Shown here one piece after another: positions 7,193 to 60,477 of a DNA stretch of 64,000 nt. The stretch lies in sequence record OQ845958.1, one strand, 5' to 3'. The notes beneath the pieces are model-generated. The model had not been told where the DNA came from and made no database searches. It saw nothing but the letters and a program-made list of their open reading frames with translations. The position numbers and the translations under genes were made by a program. How positions within the stretch are numbered: the stretch's first letter is position 1; each line of letters starts with the position of its first letter. Origin of the DNA: Escherichia phage pEC-M719-6WT.2.

Positions 7193-7939
7193 TTATGAAG
7201 TCACTGTTTGTTCGGCTACTAACAATGCAGAGGTTATTGTAAAGTTGCCGCCATTTGGCATAACAGTTATCGCTGTACCATTGGTTGCCATTGCCCCATC
7301 TTTATCAATGCTAAAGAACGTTGTAAAAGACAAAATATCTGTAGCATTTTCCGGACGATTTTGTATATAAGTGTTTCCGTTGGTTCCAACGAAATTTAAT
7401 GTTATACTTCGAGCTTGCGAGCTTCCTGTAAAATTACCAATAAGGTTGAGTTTAAATAATAGGCTTCTGTCTTGGTTATATGGCCACAACTTATCATCAG
7501 TGGTTCTAAAAAACGGAGATAGAGTCCCTGCTGTCGGCGGAATCCCCTTTAAAACACTAATTATGTTTGACGTCACACCATTAGTTAATAGAACGTTTAT
7601 ACCACTCCAAAACACCTCGGATTTTTCCCTCTTTCCTGCTGTATCAGTTAAAAAATCATCAACAGTTCCTGTATTTCCCAAGTCAAGCCATATCTGATAA
7701 GAAGACTTTCCATCCCCGCCTGGGTCTCCTTTTGGTCCTGGTACACCCGGTTCTCCTTTGGGACCAGGCGGACCCGGTATCTGAGTTTCCGAGCTGGACA
7801 TAGTTTGGAAAAAACGCTCTTTGCTATCTGTAGGAGTATTCGGCAACACCATAGTAGAACCAAACAAATACCAATTATTAGCCAAGGCAGCCTGGACTTT
7901 TTCATTGAGTTCATCAACAGTTCTTCCGGATAAAATCAT
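7193..7939 (-). CDS. collagen-like repeat protein with tail-fibre-like motif
   Basis: 248 aa on minus strand; strong SD (AAGGAGA) 7 nt before ATG; eight Gly-X-Y triplets (GPPGPKGEPGVPGPKGDPGGDG) followed by KSSYQIWLDLGNTGT, resembling the SAYEIW..GF.GT motif of phage fibre proteins. Confidence 0.6.
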   Translation of the reverse strand: MILSGRTVDELNEKVQAALANNWYLFGSTMVLPNTPTDSKERFFQTMSSSETQIPGPPGPKGEPGVPGPKGDPGGDGKSSYQIWLDLGNTGTVDDFLTDTAGKREKSEVFWSGINVLLTNGVTSNIISVLKGIPPTAGTLSPFFRTTDDKLWPYNQDRSLLFKLNLIGNFTGSSQARSITLNFVGTNGNTYIQNRPENATDILSFTTFFSIDKDGAMATNGTAITVMPNGGNFTITSALLVAEQTVTS

Positions 7940-19904: not shown

Positions 19905-19926
19905 GGGGTCATGGTATAATGACCCC
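19905..19926 (+). promoter_or_regulatory. promoter -10 embedded in palindrome GGGGTCA...TGACCCC
   Basis: GGGGTCA tgg TATAAT GACCCC; same palindrome type as at 48758-48779 and 59968-59989. Confidence 0.4.
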
Positions 19927-46751: not shown

Positions 46752-46983
46752 AGTACATAAAGAAGATTTAGATAATCTTATCTATGGTATTCAGGACGCG
46801 GTTGAATTTTTCGAAGATAATCCGACTATCGTCGTGCAGGGTAATTACGTTTTGCTGGAACTGAATCTTATTCGGAAACGTATGGCCGCGATTGAATATT
46901 TTAACAATGAAGAGCCAGGGATTTTTATCTCCGACTATGTTGCTGGTGAAATTCAAAAATTAAAAGAGATGTGCGATGATTGA
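46744..46983 (+). CDS. hypothetical protein
   Basis: 79 aa. Confidence 0.4.
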   Translation: MYKVHKEDLDNLIYGIQDAVEFFEDNPTIVVQGNYVLLELNLIRKRMAAIEYFNNEEPGIFISDYVAGEIQKLKEMCDD

Positions 46984-47659
46984 TGCTATTATTGACTTTG
47001 AAACTCTGGGAAACGGCTCGAAGGGAGCCGTTATTGACCTGGCTCTGATTACATTCGAATCTGACCCTGCTATTGTGGAATCATTCGAAACCCTGGTTAA
47101 TCGCGGCAAACGTATCAAGTTTAGCCTTGAATACCAAAAAGGTAAGCGTCTGTTCGATACAACAACCATGGGTTGGTGGAAAAAGCAATCAGCAGAAGCC
47201 CGTGTTAACTTGGCTCCTTCTGCGCAAGATGTTGATACTCTGACCGGTATCCAACAGGCAATTGATTATCTGAATGGTAATGGAATTAACAAATACGAAA
47301 GCCTTATGTGGTGTCGTGGAATGTCTTTTGACTTCCCGTTGTTTGTTGACCTTATCCGTGACCTACAGCGCAATGAGGGTATTCCCGAGCGTGAATTGAA
47401 TACCTATGGCCTGGAGCCAGTTGTATTCTGGAACCAGCGAGATATCAGGACAGCAATCGAAGCCCTATCACTCGTCCGTAAGATGTGTGAAACTCCATTA
47501 CCAAAGGGGACTTTAGATGGATTTGTGGCGCATGATTCGGTGCATGACTGCGCGAAAGATATTTTGATGCTTAAGTATGCCCAGCGCTATGCTCTTGGTT
47601 TGGATGAAGTTCCTTCCGAAGAAGATGCAGACCCGTTATCTTTACCGAAAAAACGATAA
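46976..47659 (+). CDS. dexA: exonuclease A (DEDDh 3-prime to 5-prime exonuclease)
   Basis: 227 aa (same as T4 DexA); DFETLG Exo I motif and HDSVHDCAKD Exo III motif. Confidence 0.85.
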   Translation: MIDAIIDFETLGNGSKGAVIDLALITFESDPAIVESFETLVNRGKRIKFSLEYQKGKRLFDTTTMGWWKKQSAEARVNLAPSAQDVDTLTGIQQAIDYLNGNGINKYESLMWCRGMSFDFPLFVDLIRDLQRNEGIPERELNTYGLEPVVFWNQRDIRTAIEALSLVRKMCETPLPKGTLDGFVAHDSVHDCAKDILMLKYAQRYALGLDEVPSEEDADPLSLPKKR

Positions 47660-47665
47660 AAAGTA

Positions 47666-47695
47666 GTGTACAAGGCCAATGGAAAGAGACATAAT
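47666..47695 (+). promoter_or_regulatory. early promoter (GTGTACA, 17 nt, CATAAT)
   Basis: followed by conserved leader CATCTCATCAACTACTGATGAGG. Confidence 0.5.
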
Positions 47696-47726
47696 CATCT
47701 CATCAACTACTGATGAGGATAACAAA

Positions 47727-47984
47727 ATGATTACTTCTTTTGAAATTGGCCAACAATATGAAATGTCTGCTCTTCAAGCTGCTGAAGCAGGTCTGACTGA
47801 AGCGTTTGAATGTGCATTTACAAATATTCGTGGTAAAATCTTTACTGTCAATAAAATTGCGGTATATGATAAAGAAACAGACATGAACAAAGGCATCTAC
47901 TTGAACGTGTCAAACGCAAAAGGCCGTCGTGAAATTATGGTTGTACAACCTAACCAACTGGCGATGTTCAATAAGGTTACATAA
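47727..47984 (+). CDS. hypothetical protein
   Basis: 85 aa from ATG 47727. Confidence 0.4.
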   Translation: MITSFEIGQQYEMSALQAAEAGLTEAFECAFTNIRGKIFTVNKIAVYDKETDMNKGIYLNVSNAKGRREIMVVQPNQLAMFNKVT

Positions 47985-48736
47985 TGAAACCAGAATTTAT
48001 TGACTTTGATGTTGTAAGCATGTATGTTCGCCCAATTAAACCATTAAAACTTGAGAAACAAAATATGACTATTGAAATTAACAAAACTTATCAACTGATT
48101 GAACCTATTATTCAAAACGCAGCTATGGTTTCTGGGTATAATACTCTGACTGATGCTTTAGGCGAAGGTGAATTTATTGTTGAAACTTTTGTAAAAAGTA
48201 ACTGGTTTGATAAAGCATATATTTTGCATGCACGTCGCCTTGATACAAATGAAGTAGAAAAAATTATGGTTTATGAAGCTGAGATTGAACTCTTCAAAGA
48301 AGTTGAAGAAACTCCTATCAAAGTTGACAAAACCTATCAACTTGTTGGATATGGTGATTTTGATAATACTAATGCATTGAATGCCGGTTGGCGCGTACTG
48401 AAAGGTATTTTTGGATTTGCTCCATTTACCGTTAAAACAGTTAAGTACCACAATCACCAAAGCATCTTTGAATTTACTGCGGTCAATGAATCAGGTGACA
48501 ATCTTGAAGCCATCCTTTATCCGCGTGAATCTGTACTGCTGGAAGAAGTTAGCGAACTGGGTGACCCTATTGACTTGTTATGCAAACCAGTTCAAATCAA
48601 ACGCCCATTTAACAGTTCCATTTGTGGTTGGGTAACAGACCAGTGGATTGAAGATGGTGTTGAACTCCTGAACGTTGTCCATGCTGGTGAATTTACTGTT
48701 GTACCACGTTCTATGGTTGTTGAAATTTTTAATTAA
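47984..48736 (+). CDS. hypothetical protein with internal repeat and conserved C-terminal domain
   Basis: 250 aa; C-terminal 40 aa homologous to the next gene. Confidence 0.5.
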   Translation: MKPEFIDFDVVSMYVRPIKPLKLEKQNMTIEINKTYQLIEPIIQNAAMVSGYNTLTDALGEGEFIVETFVKSNWFDKAYILHARRLDTNEVEKIMVYEAEIELFKEVEETPIKVDKTYQLVGYGDFDNTNALNAGWRVLKGIFGFAPFTVKTVKYHNHQSIFEFTAVNESGDNLEAILYPRESVLLEEVSELGDPIDLLCKPVQIKRPFNSSICGWVTDQWIEDGVELLNVVHAGEFTVVPRSMVVEIFN

Positions 48737-48743
48737 ATTTAAA

Positions 48744-48779
48744 GTGTACAAACTCTTGGGGTCAGAGTATAATGACCCC
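48744..48779 (+). promoter_or_regulatory. early promoter with -10 inside palindrome (44-bp exact copy of 59953-59996)
   Basis: GTGTACA, 17 nt, TATAAT; GGGGTCA/TGACCCC arms flank the -10. Confidence 0.5.
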
Positions 48780-48815
48780 ACTGGAGAATAAACTTATTAA
48801 CCAAGAGAGAAAATT

Positions 48816-49370
48816 ATGAAAGTTGAAGCTGGTGATATTGTACGTGTTTCTAAAGAATCTCGTTCTAAAGCTGCTGGTCGTTTTGTTGAGGTTGCGGGTC
48901 TTCGCACTAATTTAGTAGGTGGAATTAAAGAAGTTAAAGTGCGTATCATTCCTAAAAATGGTCAGACTGAAACTCAATTGGCTTATGTGCATCCTAAATT
49001 CCTGGAATCAACCGAATTTACTGGATATATCGCTCCTGTGTCTGAGGAAGTTGAATCCCATGATGGATATGTGTGCGAAAGCAATGATATCCGTGGTGTA
49101 ATTGCTCAAGACGTTGAAACCATTGACCAGTCTCATGTTGGGGTTGATTTTAAATGGAAATTGGGCAAAGGTGTCTTTTTTGTTTCACCTAAACCGTTTG
49201 AATACAATTGCATGTACGGTCCGACTTATGAAACCACTAGCATGTCTGGTTACATCACAGACCAGTGGGTTGAAGAAGGTGTCAAACTGTATAATATCGT
49301 ATTCCTTGGAACCTTTAAGGTTGTTCCTGAGAGCTTTATCGTTGAGTATGCCGATATTCATTTTGCCTAA
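48816..49370 (+). CDS. hypothetical protein, paralog of 47984-48736 C-terminal domain
   Basis: 184 aa; ...SGYITDQWVEEGVKLYNIVFLGTFKVVPESFIVE. Confidence 0.5.
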   Translation: MKVEAGDIVRVSKESRSKAAGRFVEVAGLRTNLVGGIKEVKVRIIPKNGQTETQLAYVHPKFLESTEFTGYIAPVSEEVESHDGYVCESNDIRGVIAQDVETIDQSHVGVDFKWKLGKGVFFVSPKPFEYNCMYGPTYETTSMSGYITDQWVEEGVKLYNIVFLGTFKVVPESFIVEYADIHFA

Positions 49371-49418
49371 ATTATAAAAATGATAGGGTAATTTTGCCCT
49401 ATCAATGAGGAGAATATT

Positions 49419-49643
49419 ATGTTTAATGAAGATTGTGTGACCACTTCCCTGACTGCTGAAGAGTTTTGGGACACTGCCGAAAGTGATAAAGTGATTGTGA
49501 AGAAAAACATCAATGAATTTCTTTGCACCACTGATATCATTTATGTGTATGCAGACAAAGACGCAGAACTACCTAGCTATGCGCTGTTCCGCGAAGAATC
49601 AGAAGATGGTACAGATTTTTGGAAGGAGATTTATAATGTCTAA
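49419..49643 (+). CDS. acidic hypothetical protein
   Basis: 74 aa. Confidence 0.4.
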   Translation: MFNEDCVTTSLTAEEFWDTAESDKVIVKKNINEFLCTTDIIYVYADKDAELPSYALFREESEDGTDFWKEIYNV

Positions 49644-50007
49644 ATTTGAAACTGATAAGTGGTATTATTTTAAAGATAATGTTGCTGAAAGCAGATTCCG
49701 TTTGTTATGCACAGATAATGATAATATAGCCAATGCTATAATCAATGGCGAGGGATTTAGACCAGTCAGAATTGAAGATGGTGATGTGTATAAAATGGAA
49801 TTATCAACTGGTGAATTTGTGAGCCTATTCATAAAGGAAGACGAATTCCGTTTCTTTGAAGAAGAAAAAGATGACGATACTGAAGATGAATGCGAAGACG
49901 CAGCTCCATCTGAGCCAAGCGAATTCCCTTTGACTAAAATCACCATCTCTAATAACTCCGAAGCCTGGACCGTTTACCAGATGTTGAAAGCACACTTTAA
50001 GGAATAA
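49636..50007 (+). CDS. acidic hypothetical protein
   Basis: 123 aa from ATG 49636 (SD GGAGAT); D/E-rich C-terminal half. Confidence 0.4.
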   Translation: MSKFETDKWYYFKDNVAESRFRLLCTDNDNIANAIINGEGFRPVRIEDGDVYKMELSTGEFVSLFIKEDEFRFFEEEKDDDTEDECEDAAPSEPSEFPLTKITISNNSEAWTVYQMLKAHFKE

Positions 50008-50459: not shown

Positions 50460-50861
50460 ATGTTTAAAATTGGAAAGAGTTATTGCATTAAAGATTTAGA
50501 TGGCTTCCTTAAACATGTCGGTATGCCCGGTTGCATTTTGAACCAGCAAGGAACCTCTATCATTGATTTGATTACTACCAAAGAGTTTTCAGTCACCAAG
50601 ATGGAAGCAAATGTTGTGACGGAATTTAGTACTATCGATGGAACTGGATTTTCTTTCCATAGTCGTAATGGAACCGGTCTTATTTTTGGTGATGAATTTA
50701 AATATTTTGAAGAAACCCCAAAGGAATGTGATTCTGAAATAACCGAACAGGAATCAAAAGAGGATATTGTTGTTACCGGTGGCGATGTTATTATTACGGT
50801 TAAAACTGAAGCCGGGCGCCTACAAGCTATTAAAATGTTAGAGCAGCTTCGATTCAAATAA
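50460..50861 (+). CDS. hypothetical protein
   Basis: 133 aa from ATG 50460 (SD GAGGA). Confidence 0.45.
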   Translation: MFKIGKSYCIKDLDGFLKHVGMPGCILNQQGTSIIDLITTKEFSVTKMEANVVTEFSTIDGTGFSFHSRNGTGLIFGDEFKYFEETPKECDSEITEQESKEDIVVTGGDVIITVKTEAGRLQAIKMLEQLRFK

Positions 50862-50881
50862 AAGGCCTTCGGGCCTTTTTG
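50861..50881 (+). terminator. rho-independent terminator
   Basis: GGCC-TTCG-GGCC hairpin plus T5. Confidence 0.6.
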
Positions 50882-50926
50882 CTTTAAAATATGTGACTTA
50901 TAATACCTCCATACACAAGAGGAAAG

Positions 50927-59609: not shown

Positions 59610-59954
59610 ATGTCTAAAGTATTTTTTGGTAATGCTAAAGTTATGTTCTTTAAACAGATTAGCCTTCAGGAGGCGTCGGAGGCATTCAATCAAAGTATGA
59701 TTCCTGACGTACATCCAAAAGTTATGACGAGTGCTGATTTCGTTTTCGTCCAAGACCCGGAAACAGGCTTTTATCGGTTCATTAAATTTCGTATGAGTAT
59801 GGAGCCAGGTTATCATAGTGCTTACTACGTGAGTTATGAAAATGTTATCAAAGAATTGCGTAATACCTATAAGCGCGCTTTGACCCCGCTGAATAAGGTG
59901 TATAATGCTTCCTTTTATACGAGCGGATTTATTTTAGAACAGCTTCAAAAATAG
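59610..59954 (+). CDS. hypothetical protein
   Basis: 114 aa. Confidence 0.45.
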   Translation: MSKVFFGNAKVMFFKQISLQEASEAFNQSMIPDVHPKVMTSADFVFVQDPETGFYRFIKFRMSMEPGYHSAYYVSYENVIKELRNTYKRALTPLNKVYNASFYTSGFILEQLQK

Positions 59955-59989
59955 TGTACAAACTCTTGGGGTCAGAGTATAATGACCCC
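59954..59989 (+). promoter_or_regulatory. early promoter with -10 inside palindrome (44-bp exact copy of 48743-48786)
   Basis: GTGTACA, 17 nt, TATAAT flanked by GGGGTCA/TGACCCC. Confidence 0.5.
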
Positions 59990-60027
59990 ACTGGAGCAAA
60001 AAACTTTAACTTACTGAGGAAATTAAT

Positions 60028-60477
60028 ATGACTACTTACATGACCCGTCGTGACGTACTGAATGCTGGTGCTACCACTGTTGCTTATATCCATAATGGTA
60101 ATTATGTTGCCGGTCGCCCAACTAAAGAAGCTATCACTCAACCAGGTTTTTATTTCGTGGTTAAAGGTGAAGGTGAATCGCGTATTGTTGCCGCACGTTT
60201 TTATGTTGGTAACCAACGTTCACAACAAGGGTTTGACACTGTATTAAGTCACATCCGCAAACAGCGTTCTCAACTGTCTCGCACAATGGCGAACAATGGG
60301 GTTATCTATGAAGTCCTGTTTGTCCCAGTTTCTAAAATGAAACCTCTGACAACTGGTTATGGTAAAGGTCAAATTGCAATGGCGTTCACTCGCTCGCATA
60401 GTTCTGATTGCCAGACCCTTTCAGAAATGAATCGCATGCTTGCTGATAACTTTAAATTCATTCTGCAGAGCTATTAA
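60028..60477 (+). CDS. hypothetical protein
   Basis: 149 aa. Confidence 0.5.

What the first reader, a model, noticed from the sequence alone, without database searches (positions are those of the whole stretch)
47984..49370. Paralogous early proteins sharing a C-terminal domain, one with an internal duplication
47984-48736 and 48816-49370 share a conserved 40 aa C-terminal block (S-x-x-G-[WY]-[VI]-TDQW-[IV]-E-[DE]-GV-x-L-x-N-[VI]-V...F-x-VVP-x-S-x-[VI]-VE). The first also contains an internal repeat (INKTYQLIEP / KVDKTYQLVGYG). The second copy is driven by one of the palindromic promoters. This looks like a diversifying family in the dexA-39 hyperplastic region.
Basis: seen in the sequence. 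Interest (0 to 1): 0.35.

Follow-up and report, generated by a model that had tools for sequence, protein, structure and literature searches.

The report
MotB and MotB.1 paralogs, already described
The two neighbouring early genes of this T4-like phage are the known paralogs MotB.1 and MotB, which share a conserved C-terminal domain already reported in the literature; the first gene carries two old copies of a small beta-barrel instead of one, so the finding is real but ordinary.

Summary
ORF 47984-48736 (250 aa) and ORF 48816-49370 (184 aa) share a C-terminal block (20/38 identical, BLASTP E 3e-12). Pfam's MotB model (PF17613) hits both above its cut-off.

- **Identity.** The second ORF is MotB (47% identical to T4 MotB over its full length). 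The first belongs to the MotB.1 family (PHROG 2333, E 1e-78).
- **Already known.** The shared C-terminal domain (CTD) was published in 2021 (PMC7827196), whose Table S4 lists this protein's Gaprivervirus orthologs. The MotB.1 N-terminal LSm/SH3-like barrel was published in 2025 (PMC12152347). GenBank annotates both genes as MotB-like.
- **Internal repeat.** It is real and covers two whole ~82-aa barrels (hhalign E 5e-12). It is ancient: each barrel is closer to the single barrel of other phages' MotB.1 than to its neighbour.
- **Shared domain.** It is the most conserved part, not a diversifying one. What varies is domain order.
- **"Palindromic promoter".** This is a known PeSL cassette.
- **Function.** MotB.1's function is unknown. 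I infer that the CTD is a common docking or oligomerisation module carrying exchangeable barrels.

In passing: the T4 reference motB.1 (119 aa) is truncated by one extra G that resequenced T4 genomes lack.

The parts
47667..47695 (+). Early-promoter-like site (GTGTACA-17-CATAAT) upstream of the 85-aa ORF and ORF A; probable promoter of that two-gene unit
   Evidence: Consensus scan, 9 of 12 matches; sequence read. A consensus match only; function is inferred.
47727..47984 (+). 85-aa ORF of unknown function (PHROG 17795). Its stop overlaps the ORF A start (TAATG). Possibly a free-standing barrel of the same kind.
   Evidence: PHROG 17795 E 3.4e-58, profile positions 1-84 on residues 17-100 of the longer 101-aa ORF. 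Annotated as 258 nt in phage vB_YenM_P8. It is the best non-self hit of the a/b barrel profile in the window, but weak (E 0.15; hhalign P 0.004).
47984..48736 (+). ORF A: MotB.1-family protein, 250 aa, acidic (net charge -14, pI 4.8)
   Evidence: PHROG 2333 E 1.3e-78. T4 MotB.1 aligns to residues 112-222, E 1e-17. 190 homologs found, all carrying PF17613. A 100% identical protein is in the database (P0001).
47993..48064 (+). N-terminal 'leader' motif (EFIDFDVVSMYVRPIKPL...), residues 4-27. Predicted disordered. A movable short motif in the family.
   Evidence: Conserved in alignment A1. pLDDT below 50. The same motif lies between barrel and C-terminal domain in L019, L020, L022 and P0253, and between the KOW barrel and the C-terminal domain in P0247, P0249, P0250, P0255, P0256 and P0258.
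48065..48310 (+). Barrel a (residues 28-109): LSm/SH3-like beta-barrel, counterpart of the single barrel of the 180-aa MotB.1 proteins
   Evidence: Alignment A1; AlphaFold2 pLDDT 80-91; hhalign against barrel b E 4.8e-12.
48311..48559 (+). Barrel b (residues 110-192): second LSm/SH3-like barrel, counterpart of the barrel of T4 MotB.1
   Evidence: BLASTP to T4 MotB.1 and to P0109, 50% identity. Foldseek hit to the T4 MotB.1 model P39415: E 5.4e-9, TM 0.69 on the target.
48560..48733 (+). MotB-type C-terminal domain of ORF A (residues 193-250).
   Evidence: Predicted as three strands plus a helix, pLDDT 50-64.
48743..48786 (+). PeSL cassette: early promoter (-35 at 48745-48750, -10 at 48768-48773), stem-loop TGGGGTCA/gagtataa/TGACCCCA (48757-48780), and a GGAG at 48783-48786
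   Evidence: The same 44 nt recur at 59953-59996. The stem covaries between phage lineages.
48816..49370 (+). MotB, 184 aa: basic KOW-like barrel (residues 1-64, pI 10), acidic disordered linker (65-108), C-terminal domain (109-184)
   Evidence: Pfam PF17613 E 5.5e-49 and PHROG 1671 E 1.8e-67. 47% identical to T4 MotB over its full length, E 7e-54. AlphaFold2 model. Charges.
49233..49346 (+). Shared block within MotB (residues 140-177)
   Evidence: It lies in predicted strands 137-153, 156-163, 166-171 and 175-178, pLDDT 83-92.

Best explanation
**Identity (shown).** The window comes from a T4-like phage of the Gaprivervirus type, 99% identical here to Yersinia phage vB_YenM_P8. The two ORFs are its MotB.1-family gene (47984-48736) and its motB gene (48816-49370). 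They are old paralogs that share one C-terminal beta-domain.

**Architecture (shown).**
- MotB is a basic KOW-type barrel, then an acidic disordered linker, then the C-terminal domain.
- ORF A is a short leader motif, then two tandem homologous LSm/SH3-like barrels (a and b), then the same C-terminal domain without a hairpin of about 19 residues.
- Other T4-like phages permute the same pieces: leader-a-CTD, b-CTD (T4), b-leader-CTD (RB69 group), X-leader-a-CTD and KOW-leader-CTD (Klebsiella phages). The C-terminal domain is the constant module and the N-terminal barrels are exchangeable.
- motB has its own early promoter buried in a stem-loop, a PeSL. PeSLs are repeated regulatory cassettes already proposed to drive gene shuffling in these hyperplastic regions.

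**Mechanism (inferred).** MotB is an abundant early protein that binds DNA tightly and non-specifically and alters H-NS repression (published for T4). I infer three things:
- Its basic KOW barrel supplies most of the DNA affinity.
- The acidic, near-invariant C-terminal domain is a docking or oligomerisation module for a common partner. Its D-x-W-x-E stripe and two glycine turns are invariant in both families.
- ORF A, acidic in every part, is brought to that same partner but carries two LSm-like heads that bind something other than bulk DNA, either RNA or protein.

Family membership and architecture carry about 0.9 confidence. The functional part carries about 0.3.
For: - **Identity.** Pfam and PHROG hits. 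Full-length match to T4 MotB and match of T4 MotB.1 to ORF A residues 112-222. Gene order dda-dexA-(85 aa)-motB.1-motB-cef-goF-39.2-39.1-39, as in T4. GenBank annotations of near-identical phages.
- **Literature.** The shared C-terminal domain is published, and this protein's Gaprivervirus orthologs are listed (PMC7827196). The MotB.1 N-terminal LSm-like barrel is published (PMC12152347).
- **Old paralogy.** The block is 60% identical at the nucleotide level, with only 17 of 38 third codon positions identical.
- **Two barrels.**
- **Conserved C-terminal domain.**
- **Permuted architectures.**
- **Small, phage-restricted family.** 36 representative clusters at E <= 1e-3 among 1.84 billion proteins. 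Both distant members that I traced mapped to T4-like phages of enterobacteria.
- **Charges.** MotB N-terminal barrel pI 10, C-terminal domain pI 4.9. ORF A parts pI 4.5-5.5, apart from the 27-residue leader, which is near neutral.
- **Folds.** Both models best match tandem Tudor / KOW-type double barrels in the PDB, weakly. ORF A matches the T4 MotB.1 model.
- **PeSL.**
Against: - No experiment bears on ORF A. A published T4 motB.1 deletion showed no change in burst size or latent period, and heterologous MotB.1 had no effect on an RNA reporter (PMC12152347). That construct appears to be the truncated 119-aa reference form.
- The 2021 paper predicts the MotB C-terminal domain to be a cold-shock-type OB fold that could itself bind DNA. 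My charge argument is indirect.
- The C-terminal domain of ORF A is modelled with low confidence (pLDDT 50-64), and no PDB match reaches E 1e-3.
- Oligomerisation could not be tested here.
Confidence: 0.85

Rival explanations
1. The shared C-terminal domain is itself the nucleic-acid-binding module: an OB or cold-shock-like barrel, as HHpred suggested for T4 MotB. On this view ORF A is a DNA- or RNA-binding protein through its C-terminal domain, with the LSm-like barrels adding RNA affinity.
For: The published HHpred assignment of the MotB C-terminal domain to SCOPe b.40.4.5, with eIF5A C-terminal domains as closest hits (PMC7827196). The MotB C-terminal domain is modelled as a five-stranded beta structure with good confidence. 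LSm-like folds often bind RNA (PMC12152347).
Against: The C-terminal domain is acidic in both window proteins (pI 4.5 and 4.9), and its invariant residues include D, E and W but no basic residue. The MotB.1 form lacks about 19 residues of the MotB domain. Foldseek gives Tudor / KOW-type double barrels rather than OB folds, and only weakly. Heterologous T4 MotB.1 had no RNA-reporter effect, although it was tested in truncated form.
Confidence: 0.3
2. The internal repeat of ORF A arose by a recent tandem duplication inside this gene, making it a lineage-specific expansion.
For: The two repeats are adjacent and begin with nearly the same motif, I-N-K-T-Y-Q-L and V-D-K-T-Y-Q-L.
Against: Barrels a and b are only about 28% identical. 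Barrel a is 60-66% identical to the single barrel of the 180-aa proteins of Tequatrovirus and Dhakavirus phages. Barrel b is 50% identical to the single barrel of P0109 and 37% to T4 MotB.1. Both types therefore pre-date the split of these genera. The two-barrel gene is either ancestral with differential loss, or a later fusion of two old lineages.
Confidence: 0.03
3. The block is similar because of recent gene conversion or recombination between the two adjacent genes, not because of old paralogy under selection.
For: The genes are adjacent, the region is recombination-prone, and a repeated PeSL cassette lies between them.
Against: Nucleotide identity in the block is 60%. Third codon positions match at 17 of 38, and only 10 of the 20 identical residues use the same codon. 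The MotB and MotB.1 versions of the block differ consistently across many phages: VKLYN.VF against VELLNVVH.
Confidence: 0.03
4. The similarity is a chance or compositional match.
For: None beyond the short length of the block (38 residues).
Against: BLASTP E 3e-12. Pfam hit above the curated cut-off. Reciprocal PHROG hits at E 1.3e-15 and 7.6e-11. The profile search recovers both families and almost nothing else.
Confidence: 0.01

Closest known systems
T4 MotB (Pfam PF17613; PHROG 1671), a DNA-binding early protein that alters H-NS repression (PMC6070864, PMC7827196)
   Same: ORF 48816-49370 is its ortholog. It is 47% identical over the full length, has the same KOW-like N-terminus with the SRSKAAG motif and the same C-terminal domain, occupies the same position upstream of cef, and has the same hairpin-embedded early promoter.
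   Different: It carries a 22-residue insertion in the linker (EEVESHDGYVCESNDIRG...), present in some relatives and absent from T4. No biochemistry exists for this ortholog.
T4 MotB.1 family (PHROG 2333; 'Category 2/4' MotB homologs of PMC7827196; LSm-like fold family of PMC12152347)
   Same: ORF A has the same C-terminal domain (DPxDLL...CGWVTDQWIEDGVELLNVVH), the same position immediately upstream of motB, and an LSm/SH3-like barrel matching the T4 MotB.1 model.
   Different: ORF A has two barrels in tandem (a and b) plus an N-terminal leader. T4 has one (b), and most Tequatrovirus and Dhakavirus phages have leader plus a. I found no statement of the tandem arrangement in the two papers: a search of the 2025 paper for 'tandem' returned only the reporter assay and 'duplicat' returned nothing.
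GoF / Frd.2 N-terminal LSm-like barrels of T4 (PMC12152347)
   Same: Same predicted kind of small five-stranded barrel. The goF homolog (about 49636-50007) and a further goF-like ORF (50463-50861) lie in the same region. PHROG 622 and 3710 weakly hit ORF A residues 28-115.
   Different: Sequence support here is weak: hhalign P 7e-4 at probability 26%, and an in-window HMM E of 0.45. These proteins lack the MotB C-terminal domain.
PeSL (promoter-early stem-loop) cassettes of T4-type phages (Arbiol 2010, PMC2839356; Comeau 2014, PMC4122927)
   Same: A sigma-70-type early promoter combined with a G-run / C-run stem-loop, repeated in the genome and located in a hyperplastic region.
   Different: Here the loop and the 3' arm contain the -10 hexamer. 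I did not test whether this copy borders an indel. The stem covaries between lineages and tolerates G-T pairs, which suggests it acts in RNA.

Membership tests
MotB (Pfam PF17613) | Match to the family profile above the curated cut-off | tested here: met
   ORF 48816-49370 scores 166.6 bits and ORF A 35.2 bits (C-terminal part only); the cut-off is 25.
MotB (Pfam PF17613) | N-terminal KOW-like barrel with the SRSKAAG motif, followed by the C-terminal domain, alignable with T4 MotB over its full length | tested here: met
   Met for ORF 48816-49370: 47% identity over residues 1-184, and predicted strands 8-58. Not met for ORF A, which therefore shares a domain with MotB but is not a MotB ortholog.
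MotB (Pfam PF17613) | Tight non-specific DNA binding and co-purification with H-NS / StpA | not testable with these tools
   Published for T4 MotB only (PMC6070864, PMC7827196).
MotB.1 (PHROG 2333) | Full-length profile match and the short form of the MotB C-terminal domain (DPxDLL...GWVTDQWIEDGVELLNVVH) | tested here: met
   PHROG 2333 E 1.3e-78 over residues 2-250. The invariant C-terminal columns are in alignment A1.
MotB.1 (PHROG 2333) | Gene immediately upstream of motB in the dexA-39 region | tested here: met
Tevenvirinae LSm-like fold proteins (GoF / MotB.1 / Frd.2; PMC12152347) | N-terminal bent five-stranded antiparallel beta-sheet | tested here: met
   The AlphaFold2 model has five strands in each of residues 35-107 and 117-189, pLDDT 73-91. 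Foldseek to the T4 MotB.1 model gives E 5.4e-9. This is a prediction, not a solved structure.
Tevenvirinae LSm-like fold proteins (GoF / MotB.1 / Frd.2; PMC12152347) | Detectable relationship to the GoF / Frd.2 barrels | tested here: inconclusive
   PHROG 622 E 0.009 and PHROG 3710 E 0.002 on ORF A residues 28-115. hhalign P 7e-4, probability 26%.
PeSL | Early sigma-70-type promoter physically combined with a stem-loop | tested here: met
   TGTACA-17-TATAAT; an 8-bp stem flanks the -10 hexamer.
PeSL | Repeated copies in hyperplastic regions of the same genome | tested here: met
   Three hairpin promoters on the + strand of the window (near 19915, 48768 and 59978); two share 44 identical nt. 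Base-composition shuffles give 0.65 on average.
PeSL | Borders insertions or deletions between closely related phages | not tested
   The one indel I saw against phage vB_YenM_P8 (50460-50861) is flanked by a short direct repeat at the gene ends, not by a PeSL.

The most novel reading that the evidence does not exclude
The conserved C-terminal domain is a homo- or hetero-oligomerisation or common-target docking module. MotB.1 variants, with their swapped acidic barrels, would then assemble with MotB or compete with it at the same host target, for example H-NS/StpA-DNA complexes. The domain-level permutations of leader, barrel and C-terminal domain seen across T4-like phages would be adaptive retargeting of one host-takeover machine.
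Probability: 0.12. Interest if true: 0.5.

Novelty: already known. Interest (0 to 1): 0.18.

Why it matters
As a discovery it matters little. The MotB / MotB.1 relationship, the LSm-like barrel and the PeSL promoter are all published, and pipelines already annotate both genes as MotB-like.

Two by-products may be useful to T4 specialists:
1. MotB.1 proteins are built from permuted modules around a nearly invariant C-terminal domain, and the phage in this window carries both barrel types in one protein. That makes the C-terminal domain the obvious piece to test for a partner.
2. The 119-aa MotB.1 of the T4 reference genome lacks half of that domain because of one extra G that is absent from resequenced T4 genomes. 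Negative results obtained with the 13.8-kDa form may therefore not speak for the real 143-aa protein.

Tried and rejected
- **Leader motif in the MotB linker.** I suspected that the leader motif ([IV]D.D[VIL]..[MT]Y) is also present in the MotB linker (DGYVCESNDIRG). A leader HMM scored the window MotB below many of 2000 shuffles. Rejected.
- **PDB sequence search.** Both proteins gave nothing at E <= 1, so no solved structure of MotB or MotB.1 is available.
- **Foldseek against the PDB.** No match reached E <= 1e-3. The best hits were tandem Tudor, SAWADEE and KOW6-7 double barrels with low TM scores. This indicates 'two small barrels' and nothing more.
- **Barrels a/b against neighbouring proteins.** hhalign against the GoF N-terminus, the goF-like ORF 50463-50861, the 85-aa ORF, the N-terminal extension of the 250-aa Dhakavirus-type proteins and the MotB KOW barrel gave only weak or no signal.
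- **Recent gene conversion and recent tandem duplication.** Both rejected on divergence.
- **T4 motB.1 frameshift as programmed or recurrent.** Rejected as the simplest reading. Only the two reference records carry the extra G; 13 other T4, RB55 and RB59 records do not.
Full report
**What the window is.** The region 45.4-52.8 kb carries, on the + strand:
- dda
- a dexA.2-like ORF
- dexA (46976-47659)
- an 85-aa ORF (47727-47984)
- ORF A (47984-48736)
- ORF B (48816-49370)
- cef
- goF
- 39.2
- a 39.1-like lipoprotein
- a goF-like ORF (50463-50861)
- gene 39 (from 50927)

This is the T4 order dda...dexA-motB.2/motB.1-motB-cef-goF-39.2-39.1-39, read in the direction of transcription. The DNA of 47600-49450 is 99.1% identical to Yersinia phage vB_YenM_P8 and 93-97% identical to SP18- and VR26-type coliphages (Gaprivervirus).

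**Checking the observation.** It is confirmed.
- ORF A residues 210-247 and ORF B residues 140-177 align without gaps: 20/38 identical, E 3e-12.
- Pfam's motB model (PF17613) hits ORF B at 166.6 bits and the C-terminus of ORF A at 35.2 bits, both above the 25-bit cut-off. The PHROG families of each protein cross-hit the other.
- A profile of the domain finds exactly these two copies in the six-frame translation of the window.
- MAFFT on 25 C-terminal domains shows the homology is longer than the block. A strand L-C-K-x-V-x-[FI] upstream also aligns, and MotB has about 19 extra residues between it and the block.
- Nucleotide identity in the block is 60%, with 17 of 38 third positions identical. 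This is old paralogy kept by selection, not recent conversion.

**What the two proteins are.**
- ORF B is MotB. It is 47% identical to T4 MotB over its whole length.
- ORF A is a MotB.1-family protein. PHROG 2333 matches at E 1.3e-78, and T4 MotB.1 aligns to its residues 112-222.
- All 190 sequence relatives of ORF A carry PF17613. GenBank records of close phages already call it 'MotB-like transcriptional regulator' or 'MotB domain-containing protein'.
- The shared C-terminal domain of MotB and MotB.1 was described by Patterson-West et al. 2021 (PMC7827196). Their Table S4 lists the SP18, VR7, VR20, VR25 and VR26 orthologs of ORF A.

**The internal repeat.** It is real and much larger than the two ten-residue motifs.
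- Residues 28-109 (a) and 110-192 (b) align end to end. The Smith-Waterman score is 59, against 24.8 +/- 4.6 in 5000 shuffles.
- Barrel b finds the single barrel of 180-aa Tequatrovirus proteins by plain BLASTP: 35% identity over 89 residues, E about 1e-6.
- hhalign of the two domain alignments gives 97.6% probability and E 4.8e-12.
- The AlphaFold2 model (mean pLDDT 70; 73-91 in the barrels) gives both halves the same order of secondary-structure elements.
- Foldseek matches the model to the BFVD model of T4 MotB.1 (P39415, E 5.4e-9, TM 0.69 on the target).
- The duplication is ancient. Barrel a is 60-66% identical to the single barrel of the common 180-aa form. Barrel b is 50% identical to the barrel of P0109 and 37% to that of T4. 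Barrels a and b are about 28% identical to each other.

**Architectures in the family.** Reading the homologs and 17 related loci gives these arrangements:
- leader-a-CTD (about 180 aa; most Tequatrovirus and Dhakavirus phages)
- leader-a-b-CTD (250 aa; this window and the Gapriverviruses)
- X-leader-a-CTD (about 250 aa)
- b-CTD (T4)
- b-leader-CTD (RB69-like phages, which also have two motB copies)
- KOW-leader-CTD (relatives in Klebsiella and Enterobacter phages)

The leader is a roughly 20-residue motif ([IV]D.D[VIL]..[MT]Y...) that AlphaFold leaves disordered.

Across the MotB.1 family the C-terminal domain is the best conserved part. Mean pairwise identity is 0.82 for the domain and 0.87 for the block, against 0.70 for barrel a and 0.64 for the leader. 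Most invariant columns lie in it. So 'diversifying' describes the domain order, not the shared domain.

The family is small. A profile of the C-terminal domain found 36 representative clusters at E <= 1e-3 among 1.84 billion proteins. Both distant members that I traced mapped to T4-like phages of enterobacteria.

**Structure and likely mechanism.**
- The MotB model has a barrel at residues 1-64, a disordered linker at 67-108, and a five-stranded C-terminal domain with pLDDT 77-92. The shared block forms its last strands.
- Both models best match tandem Tudor / KOW double barrels in the PDB, but no match reaches E 1e-3. There is no solved structure by sequence.
- The MotB N-terminal barrel is basic (pI 10.0). 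Its C-terminal domain is acidic (pI 4.9). ORF A is acidic overall (net -14) and in both barrels and its C-terminal domain, with only the short leader near neutral.
- The residues invariant in both families are D, W and E on alternate positions of one predicted strand, two glycines at the turns, and L, N and V on the next strand.
- From this I infer, without proof, that MotB's published non-specific DNA binding rests mainly on the KOW barrel. I also infer that the common C-terminal domain docks both proteins to a common partner or makes them oligomerise, with the barrels as exchangeable heads.
- The published alternative is that the C-terminal domain is an OB fold that binds nucleic acid. It remains a serious rival.

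**The promoter.**
- TGTACA-17-TATAAT lies at 48745-48773, inside the inverted repeat TGGGGTCA/gagtataa/TGACCCCA (48757-48780).
- The same 44 nt recur at 59953-59996, and a third hairpin promoter lies near 19915. Base-composition shuffles give 0.65 such sites on average.
- The stem covaries between lineages. T4 has GGGACCA/TGGTCCC, JS98-type phages have GAGAGCCAT/ATGGCTCTC, and several variants keep pairing only through G-T.
- This is the PeSL element of Arbiol et al. 2010 and Comeau et al. 2014.

**Verdict.** The tandem a+b architecture and the module permutations are modest additions.

Noticed in passing
L001 (T4 NC_000866.4) about record position 7305; compared with L003, L004 and L005: The T4 reference genome (AF158101.6 / NC_000866.4) has one extra G in motB.1 (ATTGGAAGATGG against ATT-GAAGATGG). 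This truncates the protein to 119 aa (...GWVTDQWIGRWR*) in the middle of the shared domain. Three resequenced T4 genomes (MT984581, HM137666, OZ209023) encode a 143-aa protein with the complete domain, and ten further T4, RB55 and RB59 records also match over 520 rather than 521 bases. PMC12152347 used synthesised motB.1 and reports a 13.8-kDa monomer, which fits the truncated form.
   Followed up: yes
window 59953-59996 and 48743-48786: Two 44-nt identical copies of the hairpin-promoter (PeSL) cassette lie 11 kb apart. The second precedes a 149-aa ORF at 60028-60477. They are potential substrates for recombination or deletion between them.
   Followed up: partly
window 50460-50861, against L002 5850-5860: The goF-like ORF (132 aa, PHROG 622) is absent from the otherwise 99%-identical phage vB_YenM_P8. 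The indel is bounded by a short imperfect direct repeat at the ends of the flanking genes (cgatttgaatga / cgattcaaataa).
   Followed up: partly
window 50862-50910: A GC-rich hairpin with a T run (AAGGCCTTCGGGCCTTTTT) is followed by TTGCTTTA-N12-TATAAT. From memory of the T4 consensus, this looks like a MotA-dependent middle promoter for gene 39.
   Followed up: no
window 48783-48786, and the same place in T4 and JS98-type loci: A conserved TGGAG[AT]ATAAA follows the PeSL stem directly, about 30 nt upstream of the motB start and separate from its Shine-Dalgarno sequence. GGAG is the RegB endoribonuclease target in T4 early mRNAs (from memory), so this may be a processing site.
   Followed up: no
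L020, L021, L022 (RB69-like loci): These phages carry three genes in a row with the shared C-terminal domain: MotB.1 (b-leader-CTD), MotB, and a second 139-aa MotB. ORF calling extends the first MotB upstream through its promoter region (MFYIQGWMEYNEF...).
   Followed up: partly
window 47679-47984: The 101-aa ORF listed mechanically most likely starts at the ATG at 47727 (85 aa). The promoter-like site at 47667-47695 overlaps its first codons, and the PHROG profile begins at residue 17.
   Followed up: partly
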